From positions 55,921 through 119,920 of the forward strand of contig CAWDGE010000011.1 of assembly GCA_963801755.1 (NCBI GenBank): a stretch of DNA of 64,000 nt, in the 5' to 3' direction. Below are positions 47,914-63,852 of this stretch, one piece after another. Both the position numbers and the translations under genes were made by a program. The notes beneath the pieces are model-generated. The model did not search any database. It worked only from the letters and a program-made list of their open reading frames with translations, and was not told the origin of the DNA. Origin of the DNA: an uncultured Nitrospirales bacterium. GTDB lineage: Bacteria > Nitrospirota > Nitrospiria > Nitrospirales > UBA8639. Position 1 is the first letter of the stretch. Every line of letters starts with the position of its first letter.

Positions 47914-49293
47914 ATGTTTAACACGATCATCGAACCCTTTCGTATCAAAATGGTCGAACATATCCGGATGACGACGGAAACCGAACGCCGAGAATTAATT
48001 GCCAAAGCGGGGTACAACGTGTTTCGACTGCACTCCGATGATGTCCTGATCGATCTCCTGACCGACAGTGGCACCGGGGCCATGAGTGCCAAGCAGTGGT
48101 CGGCCATGATGCGGGGGGATGAAAGTTATGCGGGAAGTCCATCGTTTTACCGGTTTGAAGCCGTCGTACAGGATTTAATGGGGTTCACGCATGTCATTCC
48201 GACACATCAGGGACGAGCCGCAGAACGCATCCTGTTTTCCACCATGTGCAGGGCCGGCGATATTGTTCCCAACAATACGCATTTCGATACCACCAGAGCG
48301 AACGTGGAATTTGGTGGGGCCAAGCCAGTAGATCTGCCCTGTCGCGAATTGGCCGATCTGTCCAGTGAATTTCCCTTCAAAGGGAATATGAATGTCGAAA
48401 GTCTTCGCGCGGTTTTTCAAAAAGAAGGGCGCGAGCGTATTCCGTTGGTGATGATCACCGTCACCAATAATTCCGGTGGAGGCCAACCGGTCTCGATGGC
48501 CAACATGAGAGAAGTGGCCGAGGTCTGCCGTGCCTTTGACCGCCCGTTGTATTTGGATGCCTGCCGGATTGCAGAAAATGCCTATTTCATTAAACTCCGC
48601 GAACCGGGATATGCGGGCAAAATGGTCCGCGACATTGTTCGCGAAATGTGTGATCTGGCCGATGGCTGTACCATGTCCGCAAAAAAGGATGCCATTGTGA
48701 ACATCGGGGGATTTCTTGCCACACGCAACGCCGAATTGGCCCAGCAAGAGCAAAATCTGTTGATCTTAACCGAGGGGTTTCCCACCTATGGGGGATTGGC
48801 TGGACGCGATTTAGAAGCGATGGCCGTAGGGTTACATGAAGGCATGGAGGAAGATTATCTCCAGTATCGCATTACCTCCACGGGGTATCTGGGCAACCAT
48901 TTACATGAAGCCGGTGTGCCGATCCTGCGCCCGCCCGGTGGACATGCCATCTATCTGGATGCCGCCCGCTTTGCATCGCACCTCCAACCGCTCGACCTTC
49001 CAGGTATTTCGCTCTGTGTGAAGTTATATGTGTTGGGAGGCATTCGGGCGGTGGAAATCGGCACCGCCATGTTTGGCAAGCGCAATGCGGAAACCGGGGA
49101 AGAAGAGACGGGCCCTCGCGAACTTGTTCGGTTGGCGATTCCCAGGCGGGTCTACACCCAAAGTCATGTGGATTATATCGTGGAAGTGGTGGAAGAGGCG
49201 TTCCGGCGGCGTGAGGGCTTGAAGCCGTTTCGATTTTTAGAACAAGCGCCCTTTCTCCGGCATTTCACCGCTCGATATGGGGTAGCGGAATGA
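47914..49293 (+). CDS. tnaA: Tryptophanase / tyrosine phenol-lyase family beta-eliminating lyase
   Basis: EPFRIKMVE, IDLLTDSGT, PTHQGRAAE, MSAKKD (PLP Lys), EGFPTYGGLAGRD, RLAIPRRVYT, LRHFTAR; substrate (Trp versus Tyr) not resolvable by eye. Confidence 0.85.
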   Translation: MFNTIIEPFRIKMVEHIRMTTETERRELIAKAGYNVFRLHSDDVLIDLLTDSGTGAMSAKQWSAMMRGDESYAGSPSFYRFEAVVQDLMGFTHVIPTHQGRAAERILFSTMCRAGDIVPNNTHFDTTRANVEFGGAKPVDLPCRELADLSSEFPFKGNMNVESLRAVFQKEGRERIPLVMITVTNNSGGGQPVSMANMREVAEVCRAFDRPLYLDACRIAENAYFIKLREPGYAGKMVRDIVREMCDLADGCTMSAKKDAIVNIGGFLATRNAELAQQEQNLLILTEGFPTYGGLAGRDLEAMAVGLHEGMEEDYLQYRITSTGYLGNHLHEAGVPILRPPGGHAIYLDAARFASHLQPLDLPGISLCVKLYVLGGIRAVEIGTAMFGKRNAETGEEETGPRELVRLAIPRRVYTQSHVDYIVEVVEEAFRRREGLKPFRFLEQAPFLRHFTARYGVAE

Positions 49294-49390
49294 CTATCTG
49301 AACGGAAATTGTGGAAGTGAGGCTTTGAGTCGAACCTGGATATTCACGAAATTCTGCGAGCCGCTCCCTATTGAGATATCCTGCGAATGA

Positions 49391-50237: not shown

Positions 50238-50470
50238 GGGAAACTAGCACTGCCATGTTTGTCTAAAGGATTATGAAAACCGGGGGAGAAGAGTCAGGCC
50301 CTCGCGAACTTGTTTGGTTGGCGATTCCCAGGCGGGTCTACACTCAAAGCCATGGGGATTATATCCTGGAAGTGGTGAAAGAAGCGTTCCGGTGGCGTAA
50401 GGGCTTGAAGCTGTTTCGCTTTCTGGAACAAGCACCATTCCTCAGACATTTCACCGCTCAGTACCAAGTA
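50238..50470 (+). pseudogene. Diverged duplicate of the 3' end of tnaA
   Basis: GPRELVWLAIPRRVYTQSHGDYILEVVKEAF...FRFLEQAPFLRHFTA versus ~49051-49283 GPRELVRLAIPRRVYTQSHVDYIVEVVEEAF... Confidence 0.92.
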
Positions 50471-50675
50471 TGGTGGAATAATCAAAAATGGGAACATTGC
50501 CGAAGTGCGGAATGAGGCACAATTGTCAGTTGTTCCTTAGTTCTTCTGCATTGAGGTATGATGCTTCGAAAAATTGCCCCGAATAGATGAAATACTAATT
50601 GTTATACAGTGAGGACAATATGATCATTCAATTTCCCGGGACGCTCGTCAAAGAGGAAAAAAAGAAGAAAGGAGC

Positions 50676-51236: not shown

Positions 51237-51610
51237 GAGGGGATAGTTTTGAGGTGAGGTAAAGCTTGCCGGAGGATTTGAGTCGAATAAGAAGCCTCAC
51301 GCACCCCTGACTCAATTTTCGTCAGGCATTCGGACGGTGGCAATCGGTAAGCCCATGCATGGCAAGCGAAAGCTGGGAATTGGAGAAGAAGGTTCTGGTC
51401 CTCGCGAACCAAATTTGCCATCCGGTTTTGGCCTAAGAGAGTGAAAGGCGGAGGTGGTTCGGAAGAGGGTCATTCCAGAAGTGACATACAATAGAGAAAG
51501 GATCCAATTATAGCAAAGCAGAAATAGCCATTTTTATTCAATTTTTTGTTTACGCGTTGAAGAAGGAGAAGTAGTAGTTGCATTGTTAATGCCTCTTAAA
51601 TTAGGAGACA

Positions 51611-51639
51611 TTGACTCTTTTACAAATCAGGAGTATATA
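51611..51639 (+). promoter_or_regulatory. Sigma70-type promoter of the hxs operon
   Basis: TTGACT-N17-TATATA, followed by TAAGGAGG RBS at 51661-51668. Confidence 0.6.
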
Positions 51640-51673
51640 ACGCACTACCCTTACCCCCCATAAGGAGGCTCCC

Positions 51674-51983
51674 ATGGCTGACTATCCAAGAGTTCCAAAG
51701 GTTCTCTCACCAACTCGAGATGAAGGTCTTCGCAGTACTACAATTCAGCTCGTTTCAGGTGCGCTTCTTTCCGCTGGACTTCTTCTAAGTGGCAATAGTT
51801 TAGCCGAAGCGATATCCGCCTGTAGCACAGGCCTTCACAAGCCGACCAATTGAGGGTAAGGCTATAATCATCACTCCCAGTTCGCAGATGCACATACGAG
51901 GGAGCATGTTGTTGGCTGGTCATTCTTCTCACAGCTCCCACGCTTCTCACGCCTCTCATCATTCACACTACTCCTCACGGTAG
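51674..51983 (+). CDS. hxsA: His-Xaa-Ser repeat precursor peptide (HxsA-like), one frameshift between 51804 and 51850
   Basis: ATG 51674 gives MADYPRVP...IQLVSGALLSAGLLLSGNSLAEA; second frame gives ...RPIEGKAIIITPSSQMHIRGSMLLAGHSSHSSHASHASHHSHYSSR* (six HxS triplets). Confidence 0.85.
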
Positions 51984-52001
51984 GAGAGGAGTCACAAGAC
52001 T

Positions 52002-52367
52002 GTGTGGCCTGGGTTAGGAACTGATACCCTAGGTGAGTATGCACAAGTTCTGATTGACCGCGAGCTATACGGCGACACTGCGATCTTCAAGACCGCCTAC
52101 TGGTTTACCGACCGTTTTTACATCTTTCTCGATAGTACACCCGACAATCACCTCTCGGTGGAGTTACGGCCCAAGGTTTCTTCTCCGCCTACCGATCTTC
52201 AGGCCGCATGCGCTGAGTTTTGCAATAGCCTGGTGGACTTCCGTGTCCGTGCAATGATCCTCAACGAGACGCATGCAGTCAGAGAGGCTCTCGTGACCAA
52301 AGCGTTCATGGAGGGCATTCCGAAGCCACGGGCAAACGACGACCAATCACCCTCTGGCACTTCGTAA
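52002..52367 (+). CDS. hxsD: His-Xaa-Ser system protein HxsD
   Basis: IDRELYGDTAIFKTAYWFTDRFYI...EFCNSLVDFRVR...ETHAVREALVTKAF; position between precursor and radical SAMs. Confidence 0.8.
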   Translation: MWPGLGTDTLGEYAQVLIDRELYGDTAIFKTAYWFTDRFYIFLDSTPDNHLSVELRPKVSSPPTDLQAACAEFCNSLVDFRVRAMILNETHAVREALVTKAFMEGIPKPRANDDQSPSGTS

Positions 52368-52391
52368 CTTCGGAGTCGGGGACTTCATCAG

Positions 52392-52648
52392 ATGGCACTC
52401 CTTCGACTCTTCCAATCCCCCTGCTATTTCACGCACCGTTAATCTCACGATCTATTCACGAAGCGCACTCGCGGCCACTCAGGCGGCTTTTAGGGAGCAC
52501 TGTCGAGTTTCTACCGCCCCAGTCTCTAGCGATCGTCTGCTTGTTTCGATCATGCCCCTGATGACGACATCCCGAAGAAGTCAGGACTATGCTGCTTGAG
52601 TTCTGGAATTATTTTCTAGATCGAAGCTGTCAGGAGAAGTTGGGGTAA
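52392..52648 (+). CDS. Second, HxsD-like small protein (frameshifted; not in ORF track)
   Basis: RTVNLTIYSRSALAATQAAFREHC...LLVSIMP, then shift near 52570 to EEVRTMLLEFWNYFLDRSCQEKLG*; start uncertain. Confidence 0.55.
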
Positions 52649-52659
52649 AGGAAGCGCTG

Positions 52660-54176
52660 ATGCCACACAAAGAGTTCCATCATGATTCAGGAGTATGTGT
52701 CCCCAGTGGTGACCTATAATCTCTTGCCCTTCCGGTTCATGCGCTTGGACAGGAGACTCTGTTCTGCTCACGAATGATTGGGGAGAGTTCAAAATCATTG
52801 CCCCGGATACCTTTGAGCGATTCATTCACAAGCAGCTCGATACAACCGGCACAGACTACCTCGACTTACGGGCCAAGTATTTTATCTCGGACACTCGTTC
52901 CTCCGATCACCTCCGGGTCATGGCGTCCAAGTATAGAACCAAGAAGTCCTTCTTGGATGGATTCACCAAACTCCACCTCTTTGTGGTCACGCTACGCTGC
53001 GATCACTCTTGCCCGTACTGTCAGGTATCTCGCCAGAGCGAAGACAAGACACGATACGACATGACTCCTGAGATGGCCCATAGAGCCGTCGACCTCATGT
53101 TGCGCGTGCCTGCCCCTGCGGTTACCTGCGAATTTCAGGGAGGAGAAGCCCTCCTGAATTTTCCGTTGGTCCAGGACATTGTGCTGTACGCAACGGAGAG
53201 AAATCGGTCAATCGGCAAATTCATCGATTTCGTCATCTGTACGAACCTGTCGAATCTCACTGATGCACATCTGCTGTTCTTCAAGGAACACAACATCAAA
53301 ATCTCGTCCTCGCTGGACGGACCCGCCTTTCTCCACGACCACAATCGACCTTGCAGCCGAGGCAGCTCACACGCTCTTGTGGAGTACAACCTCCGTCGCG
53401 CCCAAGAGGCACTTGGGCGGAAGAATGTCTCCGTATTGATGACGACCACAAAGGAGAGCCTAGCGTATCCTAAGGAGATCATCGACGAATATCTTCGACT
53501 GAATCTGGGGTCCATTTTCTTGCGGTCGCTCAGTCCGTTTGGTTTTGCAACGAAAACAATGAAGACAATTGGATATTCCAGCGAAGAGTTCGTCGAGTTT
53601 TACAAGAAGGCATTGGATTACATCCTTGAGCTGAACAGACGAGGGCATTCGTTTCCAGAGGGATATGCCACGTTAATTCTGAGCAAAATCCTGACACCAT
53701 TTCCCAACAGCTATGTGGATTTGCAGTCCCCCGCAGGTGCTGGGTTCAGTGCCGTGGCGTACAACTACGATGGGGAAGTCTATGCGTCCGACGAAGCTCG
53801 CATGTTAGCGGAGATGAACGATACTAGCTTTCGGCTGGGCAATGTGCTGGATAATTCTTACGAGCAGATATTCTTTGGCGAGCGCATGCAAGCCATCGCC
53901 GCTGCGTCCTGCAACGAAGCATTGGCTGGCTGTGCGGACTGTGCCCTCCAACCTTATTGCGGAGCGGACCCTGTTTACCACTATGCAACCCAAGGCGACA
54001 TGTTTGGGAATCGTGCGACGAGTGGGTTCTGCAAGAAGAACATGGCGATCATTCGGCACATCTTCGGTTTGCTTCGACAGGCTAATAGTGAGACTGAAGA
54101 GATCTTTTGGTCCTGGATTCATCAGTCGAGCAGAGAAGAGATGAAATTGCCCAAAGCCTCATGGCTATCAAACTAA
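52660..54176 (+). CDS. hxsB: His-Xaa-Ser system radical SAM/SPASM maturase HxsB (N-terminal part frameshifted)
   Basis: N-terminal YNLLPFRFMRL...VLLTND-GEF pieces; TLRCDHSCPYCQVS (CX3CX2C), EFQGGE, SSLDGP, YVDLQSPAG, YASDEARML, CADC...YCG SPASM. Confidence 0.88.
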
Positions 54177-55333
54177 CCACATACGGCAATACGGCTGGTC
54201 TGAATCATCGCTTCACAGTGCGGCTGACTTGTGACTGCTCTGCTGTGGCCATGAATCTGGCAGATCTGGCACTCGTTGTCCCGCTTGAAAGAGAAAATGC
54301 GGAGTTAACGCAGTACAAGAATTTCGCTGCCGTTATCACAGATTCATCTGTTCTGTTCGACAGGCTTGCCACCGCTGGCATCCCAGCAGTTCGCGTGCAG
54401 TCTACGGATGGATACAAGGAGGGGCATATCGTCACGATAGAACCCGCCTCAGGTTTCATTCGGACCATTTTTAGGCCTGAGTCGCCGCACAACACCATTT
54501 TCACCACAGACAGATGCAACAGCAACTGCATCATGTGCTCTCAACCACCGAAAGAGGTTGATGACAGTCATCTCGTTACCGAAAACCTCAAGATGTTGTC
54601 TCTCATCCAAGGGTCTCCGGAATATATGGGTATGACCGGCGGTGAACCCACCCTCCTTGGTCCTGATCTAATTCGACTCCTTGAGGCAGCGAAAGATAAA
54701 CTCCCTACTACTCACATCCATATGCTTACAAATGGGCGTCTGTACAAAGATCTTGCTTTCGTCCGCCGTATTGCGGATGTGCAGCACCCTTCGTTCAGCT
54801 CTGCTATCCCTCTCTATGCTGACGTGGCTGAAGTCCACGATTACATTGTCCAGGCTCATGGTGCATTCGATGAAACCGTGGAGGGCTTGTACAATGCTGC
54901 CGAGGCTGGCCTAGCGGTCGAAATCAGAATAGTTCTGCACAAACAATCCATTCCTCGCCTGAAACAACTTGCCGAGTTCATCTATTGGAATTTCCCATTT
55001 GCAGTGCACGTCGCCTTTATGGGGCTAGAAAATATGGGATATGTGAAGAAAAATTGGGAGGATTTATGGATTGACCCGGTGGATTACATGGACTCACTTG
55101 GTGCGGCTGTGAAATATCTTTACCTCCGTCGAATGAATGTCTCCATTTATAACCTGCAACTCTGCTTGCTACCGCAATCGCTCTGGAGCTTTGCACGTAA
55201 AAGCATTTCCGACTTCAAGAACGAATATCTTAATGTATGTGCACACTGCACAGTGCGAGAGCACTGTAGCGGATTGTTCCTTTCCCAGGTCAACAGGCAT
55301 AGCGAGCACATTCACGCGCTGACTATGGTCTAG
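54161..55333 (+). CDS. hxsC: His-Xaa-Ser system radical SAM maturase HxsC
   Basis: TDRCNSNCIMCSQPP, TGGEPTL, LTNGR, HDYIVQ, FMGLE, LWIDP, SIYNLQLC, SISDFKN, CAHC...C. Confidence 0.9.
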   Translation: MAIKLTTYGNTAGLNHRFTVRLTCDCSAVAMNLADLALVVPLERENAELTQYKNFAAVITDSSVLFDRLATAGIPAVRVQSTDGYKEGHIVTIEPASGFIRTIFRPESPHNTIFTTDRCNSNCIMCSQPPKEVDDSHLVTENLKMLSLIQGSPEYMGMTGGEPTLLGPDLIRLLEAAKDKLPTTHIHMLTNGRLYKDLAFVRRIADVQHPSFSSAIPLYADVAEVHDYIVQAHGAFDETVEGLYNAAEAGLAVEIRIVLHKQSIPRLKQLAEFIYWNFPFAVHVAFMGLENMGYVKKNWEDLWIDPVDYMDSLGAAVKYLYLRRMNVSIYNLQLCLLPQSLWSFARKSISDFKNEYLNVCAHCTVREHCSGLFLSQVNRHSEHIHALTMV

Positions 55334-55528
55334 GTCTATGCCGTAGCGACTCCCACTTCTTTAATCCTTTTTTAAACTGTGCGTGTTTTCTTGGTTCTCA
55401 AATCATTACCCCTAAAAGGATAGATTACCCAACACTAGCAACCCTTCCTCAGTAACTCTTTACAGTTCAGGCCCTCGTACCCCCTCTCCTCCATTGCAAT
55501 GGCTGGGATCGGCCTAGGCGCAAAGGGT

Positions 55529-57367
55529 TTATTTTGTCGTAAGCCCTGTGATGCTAGCAAGGAGTAGAGATAGCAAAACGAAGCCCATTAGCTGATGAAA
55601 GTAGAAATAGTAGGCTAACCAGCCCTGCAGTTCCGTTTTCGTGTAGTGAGACTCACGTAGCCTAATGATGGGAAGGAATCGGTCAAAGCTGTAAGAGATT
55701 AGAGGGAAATAATTTTCCACATAAGATGCCAGAGAACGCGGGAAATAGTTGTAAAGCCTCTGGGGAATAATTGCCGAAGTGTTTCCTCGGATGGAATTAA
55801 ATGGGTTGTCTTTTGAAATCTTGAGCATTATGGTCCCGATTCCGGTAAAAACCAGCACCCACAAAGTAACGCAAAAAATTGTTCGGTATCCATAGCCGAT
55901 GAAGATTTTCAGGAGAGTCAACCAAAACCAATCCAGCCTGCTTGCTACCTCCGTACGTTCTCGTTCTTTGCTTTCGTAAAGGATCTCTAATGCCTTTTTT
56001 GTTTGACCGGCTTTCCGGAACACACTTGCGAGTTGTTCGTAGGGCTGGGGTGAATAGGGCTGTTGTTTTGCCAGCCATTCCTTAAACCATCCAACATCTC
56101 TTTTGCTCAAATCGCTTACGCCATCGCCTTCCAAGCCACCTAACCGATTGTAGGTGAAGCCGTCTAGCACTAGCTGATTTGGCCATGCATCCTGTCGATC
56201 TTGTAGAGATCCCACCTCAGTATTGCGAAGTACCAACTTTGATCCTTCCCGCCACTTGATGACCGAGGAATTTTGATTTGAGGCTAGTTGAAACTCCCCC
56301 TTGATTTGTGTTCCCGTCAGGTTGAGAGAAGGAAGTGAACTTTCAGAAATATTCAAATTGGAGGCTATTTTGGCAAAAGTGAGATGGATTTCCTTGTCTT
56401 TAATCACCTGAACTCGTTTTATGTTCAAGGTATCGCCGACGTGGAGGCCGCCCATATCCAGGGAGTCGGAGAAGGTAGAGCCACCCATGATGACTTGGCC
56501 CTCTATTCGGGCGCCCCGGAGATCCACTTTGGTGAATGATGCCTCTTCCATAAAAAGACCACCCTGGACCTCCATTCCAGTCATCACCAGTGTTTTACGA
56601 AAACTGGAGTCATTCATGCCAACTTCCCCATCAATTTTTGCGCCGGAGAGTTGTACTTCGTGAAAGCTGGATCCCTCGTTCATCCAGAGATTAGTGCCGA
56701 CCTGGAGGCTATTCATATCCAAGGTGTCGACAAACGTAGAGTTTCTCAGGTCTAGGACATCCTTAATAATAGCGCCCGAGAGATGTACTTCGTGGAACAT
56801 AGCCCCCTTGTTTAGACGGAGACTACCGCCGACCTGGAGACGATGCATAAAAAAGGTGCGATTGAAGGTGGAGCCACCAAGGGAAATCCAATAACGGGTT
56901 TCTAGATGTGACAGGTTTACTTCTTCGTCAAATCGGCAGTTATCTAGATCAAGGGGTTTGGTGAGTGTACCCTCTGAAAGGTCGAGAGGCTCAATGAACC
57001 AAGCGCCTTTGATGCGTATCCCACGATGGGACACAACCTCCTGATACGGCTCATGTAACAGAATGGTTTCCAGAAAACCTGGTCGCAAAATACGGATTCT
57101 TGTCCACCCTTCCGACTTAGATGTATCATGCGCAGCCCCTTCGAGTTGATTCAGATCAGCTTCTCTGCCCTCGCAGACTTGGGTCCAGACCCATCTCTCT
57201 TGCTCAGTCCAATTTTTTCCATGGGCAGTTTTACATTTCTCCCCCGGTAACACTGGTCGGTCTTTCACATATTCTGCCGCTGTCAGCGGGAAAGACACAC
57301 CGGAAATTGCGCAGAGGATAAGAAATAAGGTGAAGACTATTCGCCAACAGAGTATGCGCGGCATCAT
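55529..57367 (-). CDS. Exported/membrane protein with beta-solenoid (pentapeptide-like) repeats and C-terminal channel-like TM segment
   Basis: Signal peptide; repeated LQVGGSL/VHLSGAxI units; QPYEQLA, IGYGY, YSFDRFLPII. Confidence 0.7.
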   Translation of the reverse strand: MMPRILCWRIVFTLFLILCAISGVSFPLTAAEYVKDRPVLPGEKCKTAHGKNWTEQERWVWTQVCEGREADLNQLEGAAHDTSKSEGWTRIRILRPGFLETILLHEPYQEVVSHRGIRIKGAWFIEPLDLSEGTLTKPLDLDNCRFDEEVNLSHLETRYWISLGGSTFNRTFFMHRLQVGGSLRLNKGAMFHEVHLSGAIIKDVLDLRNSTFVDTLDMNSLQVGTNLWMNEGSSFHEVQLSGAKIDGEVGMNDSSFRKTLVMTGMEVQGGLFMEEASFTKVDLRGARIEGQVIMGGSTFSDSLDMGGLHVGDTLNIKRVQVIKDKEIHLTFAKIASNLNISESSLPSLNLTGTQIKGEFQLASNQNSSVIKWREGSKLVLRNTEVGSLQDRQDAWPNQLVLDGFTYNRLGGLEGDGVSDLSKRDVGWFKEWLAKQQPYSPQPYEQLASVFRKAGQTKKALEILYESKERERTEVASRLDWFWLTLLKIFIGYGYRTIFCVTLWVLVFTGIGTIMLKISKDNPFNSIRGNTSAIIPQRLYNYFPRSLASYVENYFPLISYSFDRFLPIIRLRESHYTKTELQGWLAYYFYFHQLMGFVLLSLLLASITGLTTK

Positions 57368-57739
57368 CAACCCCCAAAATGTTATCGATCCTTTTAGCAT
57401 AAAATCATTGTTGGTGCCCACCGAGAGAAAATACCGGGACACTCTATTTTGCACGTTTGCGCGAGTTTCCTGGGTTGGTTCCGACTGTGTGCATTGGGAC
57501 AGACAGCTCGCGGAAATCTCTTGATGGCCGGGTAATTAGGTGATGGGGTCTTTACAAGACTTGAAACTGAGCCGCTTCCCTGTAGGTGGCCGATTCATCC
57601 GTCCAATGTCATACCATTTGCAAATGGCGCAGAGGACATCAATGGCGTATGACACAGACTATTGCCCCCCCAAATCCTAACTGCTTCAAGGTCTACGTGT
57701 CGGCCGAAGCGATTCAAGATAGTTGGCGTTGACCCATGG

Positions 57740-57860
57740 TTTCCTTCGTGACCATCAGAGCCGACTGGGATGAGCTAATCGAAGTTCCCCGTTGTGCACG
57801 GAAAAGATGGCTGAGCTGACGTTTTGTTTCATCGCATCCTTCGTCCACAGCATATCCAGT
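57740..57860. repeat. Non-coding direct repeat B, copy 1
   Basis: gggatgagctaatcgaagttc-ccgttgtgcacggaa...catcgcat..gtccacag matches 63735-63852. Confidence 0.8.
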
Positions 57861-58031
57861 TCCTAAAATTGATCTTTCTATCAAAGCTGAACTTTACCCG
57901 TCCGATAATAAATTAAGTATTTCCAAATGCTATCTTCCACTAAAGATCGGATGTCTGACCCATTCAAAAAAAACTGCCATGCCCTCCCAACATGAAATCC
58001 TTCGCAAAAAAAGGTTTTAGTTCATGGATGT

Positions 58032-58190
58032 GATCACCCTCGCTCCCAATCCTTTCTTCGAGTGGGGCGGGGGAGATTAGAAGGACATCAAATAGAAGTT
58101 TTAGAAGTGTGAGTCCAATTCGAAAATTTTGGTAATCACCAATCAGGAAGGATGTAGAAGAGGCAATCGTTCTGGGCAATTTCCGGATTT
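58032..58190. repeat. Non-coding direct repeat A, copy 1
   Basis: cctttcttcgag...gacatcaaatagaa.ttttagaagtgtgag.ccaat.cgaaaattttggtaatcacc...gtagaagaggcaatcg matches ~63582-63735. Confidence 0.8.
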
Positions 58191-58532
58191 GAGAAAAGAG
58201 GTCAGGGGTATTTTCTGACGACCCAGCCTTGCCTGCCGCCTACCGCGTCGAGTCCATCTCTCGCTTTAAGCTAAAGGGTAGATGGCGCATGGATTGTGGC
58301 CGATAGCTCGTCGGAGAACAACTAAAGTATTATCGTTGTCCGTGTTATAAGTTATCCGTCATCGGTGCTGGTCTCCTACAAGGTGTCGCCACCGTCTACC
58401 TCATACATCGGGCAGAGTTATCCCACCTGACGCAACCACTCCATAGAAAATACTTCACACGCCGTGAAAAAAAAGTGGCCTGCCCCATTAAATCATACCC
58501 CGAGCGTCGGGAGGTCGTTGATGGTAAAAGAT

Positions 58533-61500
58533 TTAGGGAAGCTTGCCTTTCTCTTTGGCGAGGTCCGGGATGCCCTGAAGGAGAAGAGGAAGCAAGGCAA
58601 TCACGGCAGGGAGGGCCGTCCGCAATTCTTCTTGGGTAAGAATTAACGCGACGATAATCGTAGCGAGCCCAATTCCTACGGGCACTTTTAGCGCGTTCCA
58701 GACACTATTGCCCCTTTTGGCCTCTTGTTGGTTTAGCTCATCGCGTATGCTAACCATCTGAACGAATTTTCGAAAACTGGCATTCATGATTCGTAGATCC
58801 GGATTGAATTGGACGAGCCCTTTCCGAAGCAAGGGTTCTAGACCGGGGTGTCCCACATGAATAAAGCGATCTCGGGATAAATGAAATAATGCGAGTTGTT
58901 CCTCCACCGTTAAGGACTGCCAAATTTCTTCGTAATAGGGTTGGGCCATTTGGAGGATGGCGGCTCTGACGGACTCATGGGAATGGTGCCGATCGGCGGT
59001 GCCGCTTTGAGACAGAACATATTTTTTGAACGTGGTGGCGAAATTGTGAAGAACCGGGGTTTCTCCGCATTCTTCCTGTAATAGTTCATCCAAGGTGTTT
59101 GTAGTCTTGAGGCTGGCCTCGGTAGACGGAGAAGTTGTGCGAATGTACATCATGGCAAAAGATCCCCAGATGGCATGCCACCGGGTTTCCGGAAGACTGT
59201 GTTTGGTCTCTGGTGTATCAAACGGGAACGAAAACGGATTGACATTCGAAAGAATCGTGGTGGAAACCCGTGGTGTGTTGGCAATGGCTGACATGACAGA
59301 GCTCCCTGGTTAGGTAGGCGGAGGAATTTTTGTGGTGACGGTCGTTGGTTGAACCTTGCCTCGAACCTCCGTCACAAGTGATTGCTTTTCTTGGTTTCCG
59401 GCGGGGCGCTGTTCTACTCTCAAGGGTATGTTGAAAAGGAATTCCAAGAATTCCAACTTTTGTTTATTAATGTCGGGATCTTTCCATTGATAATCCAGAT
59501 GGTCAAGGATCACGTGAATGTTTTGGATGTTCTGACGATATTTTTCCTGTATGCGGGTCATAAGGGCAGCCTGCCATTGGTTGGGCGAATGGGCTTTTAG
59601 ATCAAAATACAGCACACCGGGATGGTTCAAGTTTAAGTCTTTTGAGTGGGTGGAGAGAAAGTGTGTTTTCCCCTGTCCAGGAAATCCAATAAGAAGACGG
59701 TTCATCATGAGTTCTGGGGACTCGGTGGGAAAAAGTGACGATAGCGTGGAGACCATTGGGGCACTATACGACAGGAACAGGGCGCGATCCGCAATGAATT
59801 TTGGAACCTTGAGTAACCAAAACCCCACGAATCCTAGGATCAGCAAATAGCCCAGGAATTTCCCGATGGTTAGATTGCTGATGCCGGGAAGGCTCCCGTT
59901 TAGAAACCAGGGGGTTAACCTAATGTTCCCTCCTAATCGAAGGTGCCGGATGTGATTAGCGCCCGCTGGGGGCCGTAGTTTGGAATAGAGAAATACCTTG
60001 CCGTTGTTTTTATCCCATTGAATGTCCTGAACAGTATTTTTGGCCTGGGGCCAAGAATCCCCCACAAATCCCCACAGGGAAACGTGTTTGAGAAGCGGGG
60101 TGAAAGGTTTACTCAGAAGGGCAAACAATCTCTCGAAACGTCCATGGCCCTCTGCAGTAAGCGGGCTTCCTTTGGGACACAGATCCCAAGACGTGTTAAG
60201 AAAAAAGTCTGGATAGAATCCCAGGGAGTATTGGCTCACGGTATCTACGGAATCTGTTGATGGCGGTGTCGTCTCTTTTGCACAATGTTCTGGGAAACCC
60301 ACCCCATTAATGGAGGATGAGTGTTCCCATTCGGAACGGGAAATGGGAATTTTCCCGGAGGCCTGAAAACTTTTAAAGGTTTCCAATAGTTGATATTGGG
60401 AAAAAAGCGTGATTTCTTGATGGAAAATACTGGAAAAACATCCATAAGCGGGAATTACTCCTAAAAGGAGCAGACAGGACGTCAACATCAATGAATAACT
60501 ATTGGGAAACGCCAATAGAGATAATTTTTGACCTGGTAAGAAAGGTTGGGTTTGGTCCGTTGTTGGCAAAGATGGTGGCTGGCAATGTGTGATGGTGAGG
60601 GCGATTATTCCTCCCGCACATAACATTGGAACGAGCAATCCGATACTTAATTGCCAACCAGGGTTTCCAGCACACCAAAAAATTCCGATCGTGCCAACCA
60701 GAAACCACCCCAAATTATGAATCAAGATGGTTCGGTAGAAATGATGGTTCCCCCGGTTTGGCCACAACCAGGGAGCTTTCCGGTGTCGGTTTTGACCTTT
60801 CAGCAGAATCCAAAGAAGCCAATAGACGACCAAAGACCACAAGCTATACAGACTTCCTGCCACCAGAAGTCCCACGAGGTTTACGGATCGAAGGATTTCC
60901 ATATCCCGAAACACCACCAGGGACCATGGTACTGGCGATAGGGGGAGAACGTAAAAACTGGTTGGTTTCCCCCAATAAGAGCCCTCCGTATGTCCGGCTG
61001 TTCTTGCGGCCAGAAGATCTCGTAAAGTCGAATTCTCATCTGTCTCGATGAGAAACATTTCTTGAAGATTCCGCCTCTGTTCTGAATGAAACAACACCCG
61101 ATGGTCCGTCTCATCGATCACTGCAAACCCAGCATCTGGAGGAAGCACTAGATTATCCATGAGTGAGACCAATTTGAATTCTATAGCTGCCACCCATTTT
61201 CCACGTGATTCTTGTTGGCCAAGCCTACTAGGCATAGAGGCGACGACGGTATTCAACCCGGTTGTCCAGGAAGTAATCGGTTGCAGGAAAAAAGAATAAA
61301 ACGATTGGAAAGAGTCTTCTGATGCGGATTTAGGCCATTGCCAAAGTTGTGTGGGGTGCTGGGTGACGGCGCTTACATACTGTCGCTTTCCTAAGGGAAT
61401 GTTGTCGGTCATTCCTTGGGCGGGTTTCCCCGTGAAGGTGTCTCTGGCCCAATTAATTCGGAGCGATCCTTCAGGATCCATCCAAAAGGCGTAGAGAAAG

Positions 61501-63071
61501 TCGGTGTAATACCAAGGTTGTTCAGGCGAATGGGATATGTTTTCTGGAGGACAAATCTTCCTGCTGGTGGATAGGGCGTTGACGGGCCGCATTCTCTTGG
61601 GATCACACTCTTTTTGGATGTGGCCATCTAACAAGACTGGTCGTAAGCCGACCTCGTTCTTGTTTGATGGTGGTGTGGTAACTGCATGGAAGTCCTTCTG
61701 GAGGTAGTCACTGTGATCAAATTGTTCGAGCGTGGATAAAACAGAGAGCAGTTCGGCACTAAATCTGTTTTTAATGGTCTGGGCGGATTCTTCCAAGTGA
61801 TGTTGGAGGGACTGTTTCCCCTCCCAATAAATAGTGGTGTCCAGGGCCAAAAAAGTAACCAGCCCTGTCCCCAAGAGCGCCGATAATACGAGCCCAAGTA
61901 GATGAGTTAGGCGAAGAGGGTCAGTAGGATTTAAGATTTTCAAATGAAACAGAGGAATGGCGATGACCAGGCTCAAAAACCCGATCATCACTCCCAGAAG
62001 AAGTGTAGAGGAGATGGCCAGGGTATCATTGGTGAACGTGGCATCCTCTACCAATCCCACCAGAACCCACTTACCTGTTAATTCCCCTGGCAGGAGGATG
62101 GGGTGACTGAACCCTTGGTAGGATTGCCCAGGAACTTTGAAAAGAAAATGATTGTCTGCCACGGTGAGGTGATGCTCGACCTCCTGCTGAGGGGGAGAAG
62201 GGTTTGGACTCAAGAGATTCCCTAACCAGGATTGGGATGTCACGGGTTGAGCCCGTTCTTTCAAGTCATCCCACGAAAATTCTTTGGAGTCGGACTGAAA
62301 GAGAAGCGTGGCGGATTGAGAGGTTGTAGAGGGTATCGCAAAAAGAAGAACCTCGGAGAATATAGCTCTATTCGTGAGGCGTTGGAGAAAGGAACCCAAA
62401 TTAATTTCCCCAACAATCTCTATAGCTGTACTGGGATCCGAAGAAATCGTGGGATCGGAAGAAAAGCTGATTTGAATGAGGGGGGGGAGCTGATTTGACT
62501 CCACTTCTAAGCGGTACCCCTTCGATTGGGTTTTTGTTAATTCGGATTTTGTTTTTATTTGGGTCAGGCCTTCTGCTTCACACATTCTACGGAGTTGATT
62601 CGGAACAGCATCTTCTGAGGCAGTGGGGGAACCGGTGTCACAAACCAAAAGGGTTGTTGATCCTGTATGGGGATCTTGTTCGGCGACCCTTTTGTTTTCA
62701 ACCTCCTCGGATTGAGGCTTGGCCTTTTCCGTCGGCGGGATCATCCGGATCAATAAGTTCCGGCCCTCGTTTTTAATAACAGTCGAAAGCTCGGACTTGG
62801 ATTTGGGATTCAGATTTTCCTGAATCTCAGATGCTCCAACTTCAAACACCTTTTGATAACTCTGGATTTTTTGACTGATGTTCTGACCCCATAAATTCAA
62901 CAAGCGGAAATTTCGTTGAATCAGGTATTGCTCCTTTTCGGTGATATGGACCCAGGCCATTCCACTCAAAAGTCCCAAAGCCACAATCACTAAGAGGGTG
63001 GCGCGTTTCGGCGTCACCGAGGTCAGAAATTGATTATAGAAAGTAGAAATGGTTGAGAGGGGTGTAGGCAT
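58533..63071 (-). CDS. Large Cache-domain multi-pass membrane protein with P-loop region; one in-frame TAA at 59310
   Basis: ORFs 59310..63071 and 58533..59294 are in the same frame (acc TAA cca); FAVIDE...VLFHS...RNLQEMF, PWSLVVF Cache motifs; IGFPGQGKT; YYEEIWQSLT-x-EEQLALF. Confidence 0.7.
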
Positions 63072-63581
63072 GTGGATATTGAGGTGACAGGAAAGAAAAA
63101 TAAATCGAAACGTAAAATTTGATCTTTACATTTCATCTATCGATATGAGTTAAGCAAATGCCATGCCTTGCTTGGGCGATTGTTCTAAGAGTGAGTGGAT
63201 GCGGGAAGTTCCCTCTGTCGATTAACCCATTCAGAAGAGCTTTACAAAGATTTTTGGGAATCTTCGTACCTTTTTTCTATCTAAATTCGTAAAAGTTAGG
63301 AAAGGGTTCTTCAGTTGGTTGAGATCATGCGACGTCCTTCATATTTATCCAATTGGATACACTGTGTATCTTTTGAAATACATTCCTCCCCATGTCTCTC
63401 CAGCAGGGCCGGGAACGGTAACACAAGCTTGTTAAGATGTGGGAAAGTTTGGTGATAAACAAAGGAGCCTGACCTTTTAAATCATACCTGGGTTTTTCAT
63501 TCGTTGCCTCCCAATATATGAAAGAAGTCACCATTTTGTCATACCATCCCTTGCAACAAAGTTTTTCCTCTTGTATGGAAT

Positions 63582-63852
63582 TACCCTCACTCCACTCCTT
63601 TCTTCGAGAGGGGCCGGGGAGATTGAAAAGACATCAAATAGAACTTTTAGAAGTGTGAGCCCAATCCGAAAATTTTGGTAATCACCATTCAGGGAGGGTG
63701 TAGAAGAGGCAATCGCTTTGGGCGATTCCCGGGTTCGTCGTGACTATCATGAGGCGGGCGGGATGAGCTAATCGAAGTTCTCCGTTGTGCACGGAATGGA
63801 TGGCGGAGCTAACGTTTTGTCCCATCGCATTCTTTGTCCACAGACCATCCAA
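63582..63852. repeat. Non-coding direct repeats A+B, copy 2 (contiguous)
   Basis: Matches 58032-58190 followed directly by 57740-57860. Confidence 0.8.

What the first reader, a model, noticed from the sequence alone, without database searches (positions are those of the whole stretch)
51611..55333. Complete His-Xaa-Ser radical-SAM peptide system whose precursor is hidden from the ORF track
Seen: a sigma70-like promoter and strong RBS lead into a precursor of about 102 aa. It has a signal-peptide-like hydrophobic stretch and ends in HSS-HSS-HAS-HAS-HHS-HYS-SR, and it is split by one frameshift so neither half reaches the 60-aa track cutoff. It is followed by hxsD, a second HxsD-like ORF, and two tandem radical SAM genes (HxsB with SPASM, HxsC). 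Known: this matches the TIGRFAM-defined His-Xaa-Ser system (HxsA/B/C/D), for which I know of no established product or biological role. Inference: the two radical SAM enzymes may crosslink or modify the HxS triplets, as His-containing cyclophane RiPP enzymes do, giving a metal-binding or defensive peptide. There is no protease or ABC exporter in the locus, so Sec export may double as leader removal. It sits in an accessory region beside a TA module.
Basis: partly seen in the sequence, partly recalled or inferred. Interest (0 to 1): 0.82.

Follow-up and report, generated by a model that had tools for sequence, protein, structure and literature searches.

The report
Compact five-gene HXS anti-phage variant
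This is a gene cluster for a small histidine-rich peptide and its modifying enzymes, related to the HXS system shown in 2026 to block phage DNA entry; it is an untested compact form that lacks the cell-wall anchor, adds a second helper protein, and likely also defends against phage.

Summary
The locus is real. HxsB, HxsC and HxsD pass their NCBIfam cut-offs, and a 102-aa precursor ends in six His-x-Ser repeats. The window has five extra bases, not one: precursor 1, HxsD-like gene 2, hxsB 2. All are absent from 85-95% identical relatives and are most likely assembly errors, because this genome also has private frameshifts in ordinary genes. Li et al. 2026 (PMC13128918) show that E. coli HXS blocks phage DNA entry through a periplasmic HxsA with a +8 Da modification. 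This copy differs from that system. The order is A-D-D'-B-C. The precursor has no peptidoglycan-binding domain (required in E. coli) and no Lys/Arg in its repeats, and it has a longer leader. An extra HxsD paralogue (D') is predicted to bind HxsD (score 0.68, best control 0.00). The same five-gene layout recurs in Nitrospirota, NC10 and Proteobacteria, including cultured Pseudovibrio flavus. Short-precursor systems without D' are already annotated (HxsA2). The scan has noted Hxs loci on other DNA many times (229 notes), none like this stretch. Verdict: new variant of a known system; defence role likely but untested.

The parts
51611..51639 (+). Possible sigma70-type promoter (TTGACT-17-TATATA); not shown to work
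   Evidence: Sequence; not reported by the consensus scan; similar -35 box at the same site in G069
51662..51668 (+). Ribosome-binding site AAGGAGG, 5 nt before the precursor ATG
51674..51983 (+). Short HxsA-type precursor, 102 aa: ~25-aa N-region, hydrophobic helix, A-x-A site, spacer, six HxS repeats at the C-terminus; no peptidoglycan-binding domain; one extra base near 51818
   Evidence: extra base absent in 5 of 5 runs that cover it
51921..51974 (+). His-x-Ser repeat core; the last repeat reads S-H-Y-S-S, matching the modified S-H-R-S-S of E. coli HxsA
   Evidence: motif from PMC13128918
52002..52367 (+). hxsD, 121 aa (GTG start), intact
   Evidence: TIGR03976 73.7 bits, cut-off 50; AF2 beta-alpha-beta-beta-alpha core, pLDDT 86
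52392..52648 (+). HxsD-like paralogue D', 84 aa; two extra bases near 52398 and 52570
   Evidence: Intact in relatives; NF038315 28-31 bits, cut-off 41; homologous to HxsD, hhalign 95.8%, E 7.9e-9; predicted to bind HxsD
52660..54176 (+). hxsB radical SAM maturase, 504 aa; CxxxCxxC plus C-terminal CxxCx5C; two extra bases near 52680 and 52752
   Evidence: TIGR03978 612 bits, cut-off 370; motifs; intact 504-aa orthologues
54161..55333 (+). hxsC radical SAM maturase, 390 aa, intact, overlapping the end of hxsB
   Evidence: TIGR03977 375.5 bits, cut-off 267.9; motifs
51410..63660 (.). About 12-kb accessory stretch (hxs operon, pentapeptide-repeat gene, 253-aa and 1253-aa genes) missing at this site in most of the congeners fetched
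   Evidence: Flanks at about 51.3-51.4 kb and 63.66-63.9 kb lie close together in 8 of the 10 congener regions examined; G069 carries the precursor, and the G012 stretch ends before the right flank

Best explanation
This is a five-gene His-Xaa-Ser operon (precursor, HxsD, an extra HxsD paralogue D', HxsB, HxsC) that likely works as a compact form of the HXS anti-phage system. Shown here: the gene content, intact orthologues, purifying selection, and patchy spread in accessory DNA. Predicted: HxsD and D' form a heterodimer. Inferred from E. coli: HxsD binds HxsC. Inferred from one natural D'-HxsB fusion: D' pairs with HxsB, so the D-D' pair would bridge the two radical SAM enzymes. Inferred from E. 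coli HXS: the enzymes would modify the last repeat (S-H-Y-S-S, +8 Da type), the N-terminus would be processed, and a ~55-residue His/Ser-rich product would reach the periplasm and slow phage DNA entry without a wall anchor. The five extra bases in this assembly are most likely sequencing errors, so the living strain likely has an intact operon.
For: HxsB, HxsC and HxsD pass their curated cut-offs. The E. coli system blocks 110 of 113 phages and needs all four genes (PMC13128918). The precursor lines up by architecture with the N-terminal half of Klebsiella HxsA (signal, spacer, repeats), and S-H-x-S-S closes the repeats in 11 of 11 precursors of D' loci. On quick HxsB trees, short and PG-bearing precursors are interleaved (L103 with L104/L105; L088 with the short group), so the PG tail looks modular. 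The distribution is patchy, as for defence cassettes: 2 of 50 genus genomes, 9 of 251 order genomes, 7 of 401 phylum genomes. The cassette is 85-92% identical at DNA level in unrelated neighbourhoods. Short-precursor relatives sit on plasmids beside TA and nuclease genes and on a Leptospira phage. D-D' model: 0.68 against best control 0.00; the mark was reached by 116 of 157 solved and 2 of 215 mismatched pairs; runs agree in at least 93% of contacts; partner pLDDT at least 80. The interface uses D Y33 (the LYW-equivalent) and the near-invariant D' Y21, L68, N72, L75. P0077 is a D'-HxsB fusion. Errors rather than decay: pN/pS 0.11-0.18 for hxsD, hxsB and hxsC with no stops; 17 private frameshifts in G000 against 0, 1 and 0 in three congeners over 34 shared genes.
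Against: In E. coli, mutating the PG-binding domain abolishes defence, and this precursor has none. The published model relies on basic repeats binding DNA: the window's repeats have no Lys/Arg, and cores of the D' subtype have 0-2, against 3 in Klebsiella. Neighbours are not a clear defence island: 12 of 115 neighbour ORFs hit PADLOC, mostly as generic domains, and no control set was run. The pairwise BLAST of the G069 precursor against Klebsiella HxsA is not significant (E 4.2). HxsB is only 33% identical to the Klebsiella enzyme. The fusion is 1 of 61 D' clusters and could be a read-through artefact. The D-D' pass could reflect a D-D self-interface, since close cousins also pass. No run of the same strain was found (best about 95% identical), so the errors are not proven. 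Five events in 3.7 kb exceed a uniform background (P 3e-4), although background events also cluster.
Confidence: 0.55

Rival explanations
1. The short-precursor form makes a free, modified His-rich peptide for metal binding or envelope stress, not phage defence; only the PG-anchored form is a phage barrier.
For: No PG domain and no basic residues in the repeats. Seven His in 18 residues could bind metal (general knowledge). Neighbours are often exported or periplasmic genes rather than defence genes. A cytochrome P460-like gene lies just upstream.
Against: No metal transporter or regulator is conserved beside the cassette; neighbours differ in every locus examined. The P460 gene is also present in congeners that lack hxs. 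The patchy, mobile distribution fits defence better than core physiology.
Confidence: 0.2
2. The frameshifts are real and the operon is a recent pseudogene in this strain, whatever its relatives do.
For: Five events within about 940 bp and none in the next 2.6 kb; P 3e-4 under a uniform rate. A relative (L092) has its hxsB split by IS66-type elements, so such loci do decay.
Against: All five are +1 insertions. There are no stop codons and pN/pS matches intact relatives. The same assembly has private frameshifts in ordinary genes, among them ones whose N-termini I recognise from memory as isocitrate dehydrogenase and CheA; several genes carry 2-3 events. The assembly is only 80% complete by markers despite 3.87 Mb in 26 contigs.
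Confidence: 0.12
3. It is a cyclophane-type RiPP: each HxS triplet is crosslinked (-2 Da each) and the product is a secreted antimicrobial.
For: Repeats at the C-terminus behind a leader look like a RiPP core. HxsB has a SPASM-like tail. By arithmetic, +C/-4H could include dehydrogenation steps (inference).
Against: E. coli HxsA carries one +8 Da change mapped to the last repeat, not -2 Da per triplet. HxsB is far below all cyclophane-maturase cut-offs. There is no transporter, protease or immunity gene nearby.
Confidence: 0.13

Closest known systems
HXS anti-phage system of E. coli/Klebsiella, hxsD-hxsB-hxsC-hxsA (TIGR03976-03979; Li et al., Nat Commun 2026, PMC13128918)
   Same: HxsB, HxsC and HxsD families over cut-off; both Cys motifs in each enzyme; signal-like N-terminus, spacer and tandem HxS ending in S-H-x-S-S; accessory location.
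   Different: Order A-D-D'-B-C (the paper reports D-B-C-A in 99.6%); precursor 102 aa against 211-214 aa, with no Ser-rich linker or PG-binding domain; six repeats without Lys/Arg; ~25-aa N-region; a fifth gene D'; HxsB only 33% identical; host in Nitrospirales (the paper reports 99.7% Pseudomonadota).
Short-precursor HxsA2-HxsD-HxsB-HxsC loci (NCBIfam NF038296), e.g. Acidiphilium pACRY02, Paraburkholderia pSYMBR3459, Nostoc p057_G; also a short-precursor locus on Leptospira phage LnoZ_CZ214 (annotated HxsA)
   Same: Precursor first, about 90-105 aa, repeats at or near the C-terminus, no PG domain; HxsB about 47-51% identical in such loci. No functional study was found in the searches run.
   Different: These have one HxsD and a short N-region (helix starts at residue 4-13). 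The window's subtype has D' and a long [FYLI]-P-K leader, and scores 21-31 bits against the NF038296 cut-off of 48.
HxsD-like protein family NF038315
   Same: Best NCBIfam match for D'; 5 of 21 members of the D' family scanned pass its cut-off.
   Different: This D' scores 28-31 against 41; no described function; no paper in the library uses the term 'HxsD-like'.
His/Tyr cyclophane (triceptide) radical SAM RiPPs: YhhB, GrrM/OscB, XyeB, DarE
   Same: Radical SAM/SPASM-type enzyme acting on three-residue motifs (recalled, not tested).
   Different: Scores far below cut-offs; two different radical SAM enzymes and HxsD adaptors; no ABC exporter or protease; the measured HXS change is +8 Da.

Membership tests
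His-Xaa-Ser system (TIGRFAM definition) | HxsB, TIGR03978 over cut-off | tested here: met
   612 vs 370 bits
His-Xaa-Ser system (TIGRFAM definition) | HxsC, TIGR03977 over cut-off | tested here: met
   375.5 vs 267.9 bits
His-Xaa-Ser system (TIGRFAM definition) | HxsD, TIGR03976 over cut-off | tested here: met
   73.7 vs 50 bits
His-Xaa-Ser system (TIGRFAM definition) | Adjacent protein with tandem His-x-Ser repeats | tested here: met
   Six repeats at 51921-51974
Canonical HXS anti-phage system (Li et al. 2026) | HxsA equivalog TIGR03979 over cut-off | tested here: not met
   34.8 vs 121.65 for the window's 3' half and for the intact G069 orthologue; Klebsiella HxsA scores 162.8
Canonical HXS anti-phage system (Li et al. 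2026) | Peptidoglycan-binding domain on HxsA | tested here: not met
   The precursor ends 2 residues after the repeats in the window and in relatives; no second HxS gene of this kind in G000
Canonical HXS anti-phage system (Li et al. 2026) | Four genes in the order D-B-C-A | tested here: not met
   Five genes, A-D-D'-B-C
Canonical HXS anti-phage system (Li et al. 2026) | Radical SAM CxxxCxxC and second Cys cluster in both HxsB and HxsC | tested here: met
   HxsB CDHSCPYC and C407/C410/C416 (open-frame numbering); HxsC CNSNCIMC and C360/C363/C369
Canonical HXS anti-phage system (Li et al. 2026) | Terminal S-H-x-S-S motif (site of +8 Da) | tested here: met
   SHYSS in the window; S-H-x-S-S in 11 of 11 D'-type precursors
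Canonical HXS anti-phage system (Li et al. 2026) | HxsD motifs LYW and LLNDYxLRE | tested here: inconclusive
   The equivalent positions read AYW and FCNSLVDFRVR; Tyr, Asp and Arg are kept and invariant in the clade
Canonical HXS anti-phage system (Li et al. 2026) | Cleavable signal peptide and periplasmic location | tested here: inconclusive
   Hydrophobic 13-mer (Kyte-Doolittle about 2.1) at residue 26 followed by A-x-A; no signal-peptide predictor available
Canonical HXS anti-phage system (Li et al. 2026) | +8 Da modification, B/C/D-dependent cleavage, block of phage DNA entry | not testable with these tools
   Needs expression, mass spectrometry and phage assays
HxsA2 / A3 / A4 precursor families (NF038296, NF038309, NF038313) | Score over curated cut-off | tested here: not met
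   A2 21-31 vs 48; A3 up to 27.6 vs 65; A4 up to 22.8 vs 55, for the window half and intact D'-type precursors
HxsD-like NF038315 | Score over curated cut-off | tested here: not met
   28.2-30.7 vs 41 for intact close orthologues; 5 of 21 wider family members pass
Cyclophane-forming rSAM/SPASM maturases (YhhB, GrrM, FxsB, AmcB, DarE) | Equivalog score over cut-off | tested here: not met
   26-56 bits vs cut-offs of 310-650
SPASM-domain radical SAM enzymes | Pfam PF13186 over gathering score | tested here: inconclusive
   21.1 vs 21.5 bits, E 4e-4

The most novel reading that the evidence does not exclude
A distinct cross-phylum HXS subtype in which a D-D' heterodimer bridges HxsC and HxsB and reads a dedicated long [FYLI]-P-K leader. 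It would produce a ~55-residue, anchor-free, non-basic modified peptide that blocks phage DNA entry. That would show that the modified His-x-Ser array alone is the active barrier, and that the published wall-anchor and electrostatic model is not the core mechanism. It would also give a small substrate and a defined adaptor complex for solving the unexplained +8 Da chemistry.
Probability: 0.3. Interest if true: 0.68.

Novelty: new variant of a known kind. Interest (0 to 1): 0.4.

Why it matters
The HXS paper leaves two questions open: the chemistry of the +8 Da change (in vitro reconstitution failed, and HxsA formed inclusion bodies) and how the matured protein stops DNA. This natural half-length precursor, without the wall anchor or basic residues, is a ready test of whether the repeats alone carry the activity, and may be an easier substrate. 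The predicted D-D' pair and the D'-HxsB fusion suggest how the two enzymes are coupled, which pull-downs in E. coli did not show for HxsB. It also places the system in Nitrospirales, an order known for nitrite oxidisers (general knowledge), and near-identical cassettes occur in wastewater, soil and aquaculture runs. The system itself is known and short precursors are already annotated, so the gain is incremental.

Tried and rejected
Same-strain reads: no run held more than 0.25 of the sampled words, so the extra bases could not be checked in the source strain. Expression: contigs of one metatranscriptome (X16) lie on 51.9-55.4 kb but come from relatives at 85-99% identity and may include DNA, so this was not taken as evidence. 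Viral contigs: no relative of HxsD or HxsB with the patterns used; 2 phage records carry HxsB. Fold searches of D' and D gave only generic alpha/beta matches: best Z 8.3 to a designed protein, best 7.1 for D. The Pcc1-like hits for D' (Z 6.1-6.2) are within background and were not used. The ESM Atlas could not be searched. The careful HxsB tree did not finish; quick trees leave D' monophyly unresolved. One search used 35 rows; one search used 27 after dropping 3 long branches and 5 near-duplicates. The first background frameshift rate (28 events in 19 of 142 genes) was unpolarised, and a control near tnaA gave 0-2 events per congener too. I therefore relied on the polarised test, whose four regions were picked because G000 had events there, so its rate is inflated. 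Defence-island enrichment: 12 of 115 mechanically called neighbour ORFs from 19 loci hit PADLOC, with no control set; not accepted as support. The D'/long-leader co-occurrence (11 of 11 vs 0 of 16) is confounded by kinship (7 of the 11 are one close clade). Start codons were chosen by me, and 5 precursors with unclear starts or ends (L096, L097, L104, L105, L106) were left out. A membrane-anchor role for the long leader was considered but not favoured, because an A-x-A site is kept in most relatives and D-only short systems lack both the long leader and the PG domain.
Full report
Observation. The sequence shows an RBS (51662-51668), an ATG at 51674 and a 59-aa frame with a hydrophobic stretch. 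One frame over, the continuation ends in six His-x-Ser repeats and a stop at 51983. Only 2 runs of three or more HxS exist in all six frames of the 3.87-Mb genome, and the other has 3 repeats. Downstream genes pass the NCBIfam cut-offs for HxsD (73.7 vs 50), HxsB (612 vs 370) and HxsC (375.5 vs 267.9). Between hxsD and hxsB lies an 84-aa HxsD-like gene, here called D'. The proposed promoter failed the consensus scan, but a similar -35 box is kept in the congener G069.

Five breaks, probably errors. Contigs from 8 public runs of 7 studies were laid on the region, the longest about 95% identical. Wherever they cover the site, they lack an extra base near 51818 (5 of 5 runs), 52398 (7 of 7), 52570 (8 of 8), 52680 (8 of 8) and 52752 (7 of 7). 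All 11 metagenome loci that aligned across 52398 lack that base too, and their ORFs are intact: precursor 100-104 aa, D 121, D' 84, HxsB 504, HxsC 390. G069 has an intact 102-aa precursor at the same chromosomal site and intact D, D', B and C. Window-private changes give pN/pS 0.11-0.18 in hxsD, hxsB and hxsC, none in D', and no stops, like the intact relatives. Over 34 ordinary genes (40 kb) shared by five genomes, G000 has 17 private frameshifts against 0, 1 and 0 in three congeners; the regions were chosen because G000 had events there. Against this: five events in 3.7 kb exceed a uniform background (P 3e-4), an unpolarised control near tnaA also gave 0-2 events per congener, and no same-strain reads were found. 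I put assembly error at about 85-90%.

What is known. The system is no longer without a function. Li et al. 2026 (PMC13128918) describe it. I read parts 1-5 of 9 of the text (abstract, results, discussion, first methods), ran term searches, and searched 2 readable supplements; one scanned file could not be read. E. coli HXS inhibits 110 of 113 phages at DNA entry. HxsA (214 aa) has a signal peptide, five repeats and a peptidoglycan-binding domain. HxsB/C/D are needed for its cleavage, and a +8 Da (+C/-4H) change maps to SHRSS. HxsC binds HxsD in pull-downs; HxsB showed no stable association with HxsC. Mutating the PG domain abolishes defence. Their survey, based on HxsA, gives 99.6% D-B-C-A and 99.7% Pseudomonadota. 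'HxsA2', 'HxsD-like' and 'Nitrospir' do not occur in the main text, and 'Nitrospir' does not occur in the readable supplements. PMC9062424 only mentions HxsB/C as annotated enzymes (passages). Searches for HxsA2, TIGR03979 and HxsD-like found no paper holding those terms. 'HXS system' with 'phage defense' since 2025 found only this paper. Most subscription journals are not in the library.

How this copy differs. The precursor aligns by architecture with the first half of Klebsiella HxsA but stops two residues after the repeats. The pairwise BLAST of the intact G069 orthologue against it is not significant. It fails the HxsA, A2, A3 and A4 cut-offs. Its last repeat is S-H-Y-S-S, keeping the three positions that the paper found essential. 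The repeats have no Lys/Arg. Short precursors as such are not new: HxsA2-D-B-C loci are annotated on plasmids, and a short-precursor locus lies on a Leptospira phage. On quick HxsB trees, short and PG-bearing types are interleaved (SH-aLRT only). What marks this subtype is D' plus a longer leader. All 11 D' loci with a visible precursor have an [FYLI]-P-K/N motif and a helix starting at residue 24-34; 0 of 16 precursors from loci without D' do (kinship-confounded, 5 loci left out). The five-gene layout occurs in Nitrospirota, an NC10 genome, Proteobacteria MAGs and Pseudovibrio flavus. The D' profile finds 61 clusters at 50% identity.

D'. It is homologous to HxsD (hhalign 95.8%, E 7.9e-9). 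Both are predicted to have a beta-alpha-beta-beta-alpha core, and D' lacks the long C-terminal helix extension. Fold searches gave nothing specific. A complex prediction of the window's HxsD with a close intact D' (P0015) scored 0.68 against a best control of 0.00. The mark was reached by 116 of 157 solved and 2 of 215 mismatched pairs; these counts hold only roughly with my own alignments. Runs agreed in at least 93% of contacts, and partner pLDDT was at least 80. The interface joins the invariant FKTAYW-FY stretch of D (including Y33, the counterpart of the required E. coli Tyr) to the conserved L68-N72-L75 helix and Y21 of D'. This supports binding but does not show it, and a paralogue could pass by mimicking a D-D interface. 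One protein, P0077, is a D'-HxsB fusion. Together these suggest, as inference, a chain HxsB-D'-D-HxsC.

Context. The operon is in 2 of 50 genomes of the genus, 9 of 251 of the order and 7 of 401 of the phylum. The host is in Nitrospirales, at order level, from the title of a record matching a same-genus contig. It starts a ~12-kb stretch whose flanks lie close together in 8 of the 10 congener regions examined. The site is a hotspot with repeated copies of the 3' end of the tryptophanase-like gene and a VapBC-type pair. Neighbours differ in every related locus. They include HicA, Fic, HEPN, caspase-domain and transposase genes, but only 12 of 115 neighbour ORFs hit PADLOC, mostly as generic domains and without a control.

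Mechanism and verdict. Most likely (0.55) this is a compact HXS defence cassette. The D-D' pair would couple the two radical SAM enzymes; they would modify the last repeat and allow processing and export of a small periplasmic His/Ser peptide that slows phage DNA entry. Only the gene content, conservation and distribution are shown. The complex is predicted, and the chemistry and defence role are inferred from E. coli. The rivals are a non-defence metal-binding peptide (0.2), a cyclophane antimicrobial (0.13) and a true pseudogene (0.12). It works like HXS and belongs to the His-Xaa-Ser system by its enzymes, but it is not a member of the characterised four-gene type. Earlier notes of this scan list 229 Hxs findings in at least 174 genomes, some with two HxsD genes; none resembles this stretch. 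New variant of a known kind; interest 0.4.

Noticed in passing
window 49038-49304, 50239-50484, 51324-51409: Three copies (76-85% identical) of the 3' end of the tryptophanase-like gene separate small cassettes (VapBC, cytochrome P460-like gene, hxs). Congeners carry 2-4 such copies with different cargo, which suggests an integration hotspot.
   Followed up: partly
window 57746-58189 and 63546-63851: An ~83-84% direct repeat of about 300 bp brackets the 253-aa and 1253-aa genes; contigs of run X6 show joints to and from this repeat.
   Followed up: no
window 59310-63071 and 58533-59294 (- strand): A 1253-aa membrane protein with a C-terminal P-loop-like stretch (weak AAA_19, below cut-off) followed by a 253-aa ORF. 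This may be one gene split by another assembly frameshift. A distant paralogue lies on contig C20.
   Followed up: no
window 55529-57454 (- strand): A pentapeptide-repeat membrane protein directly downstream travels with the hxs operon in G069 and in runs X1-X4, but not in other relatives.
   Followed up: partly
G000, genome-wide: The assembly carries many private single-base frameshifts in ordinary genes, so other 'split gene' findings in this genome should be treated with caution.
   Followed up: yes
L079:3673-4298: A same-order genome (G055) has two tandem HxsA2 precursors before hxsD-hxsB-hxsC.
   Followed up: no
L092:8600-12200: In a betaproteobacterial MAG, hxsB of the five-gene type is interrupted by IS66-type transposase genes and a gene with a DruA-like Pfam match.
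   Followed up: no
L015:8306-9982, L018:8328-10148, L027:3204-4949: A gene with caspase-like (C14) and FGE-sulfatase domains abuts hxsC in three related loci; it could be a linked protease, but it is absent from the window and from most loci.
   Followed up: partly
L103:5287-8596: A Leptospira phage record carries a complete short-precursor hxsA-D-B-C operon, a candidate for phage-borne superinfection defence.
   Followed up: no
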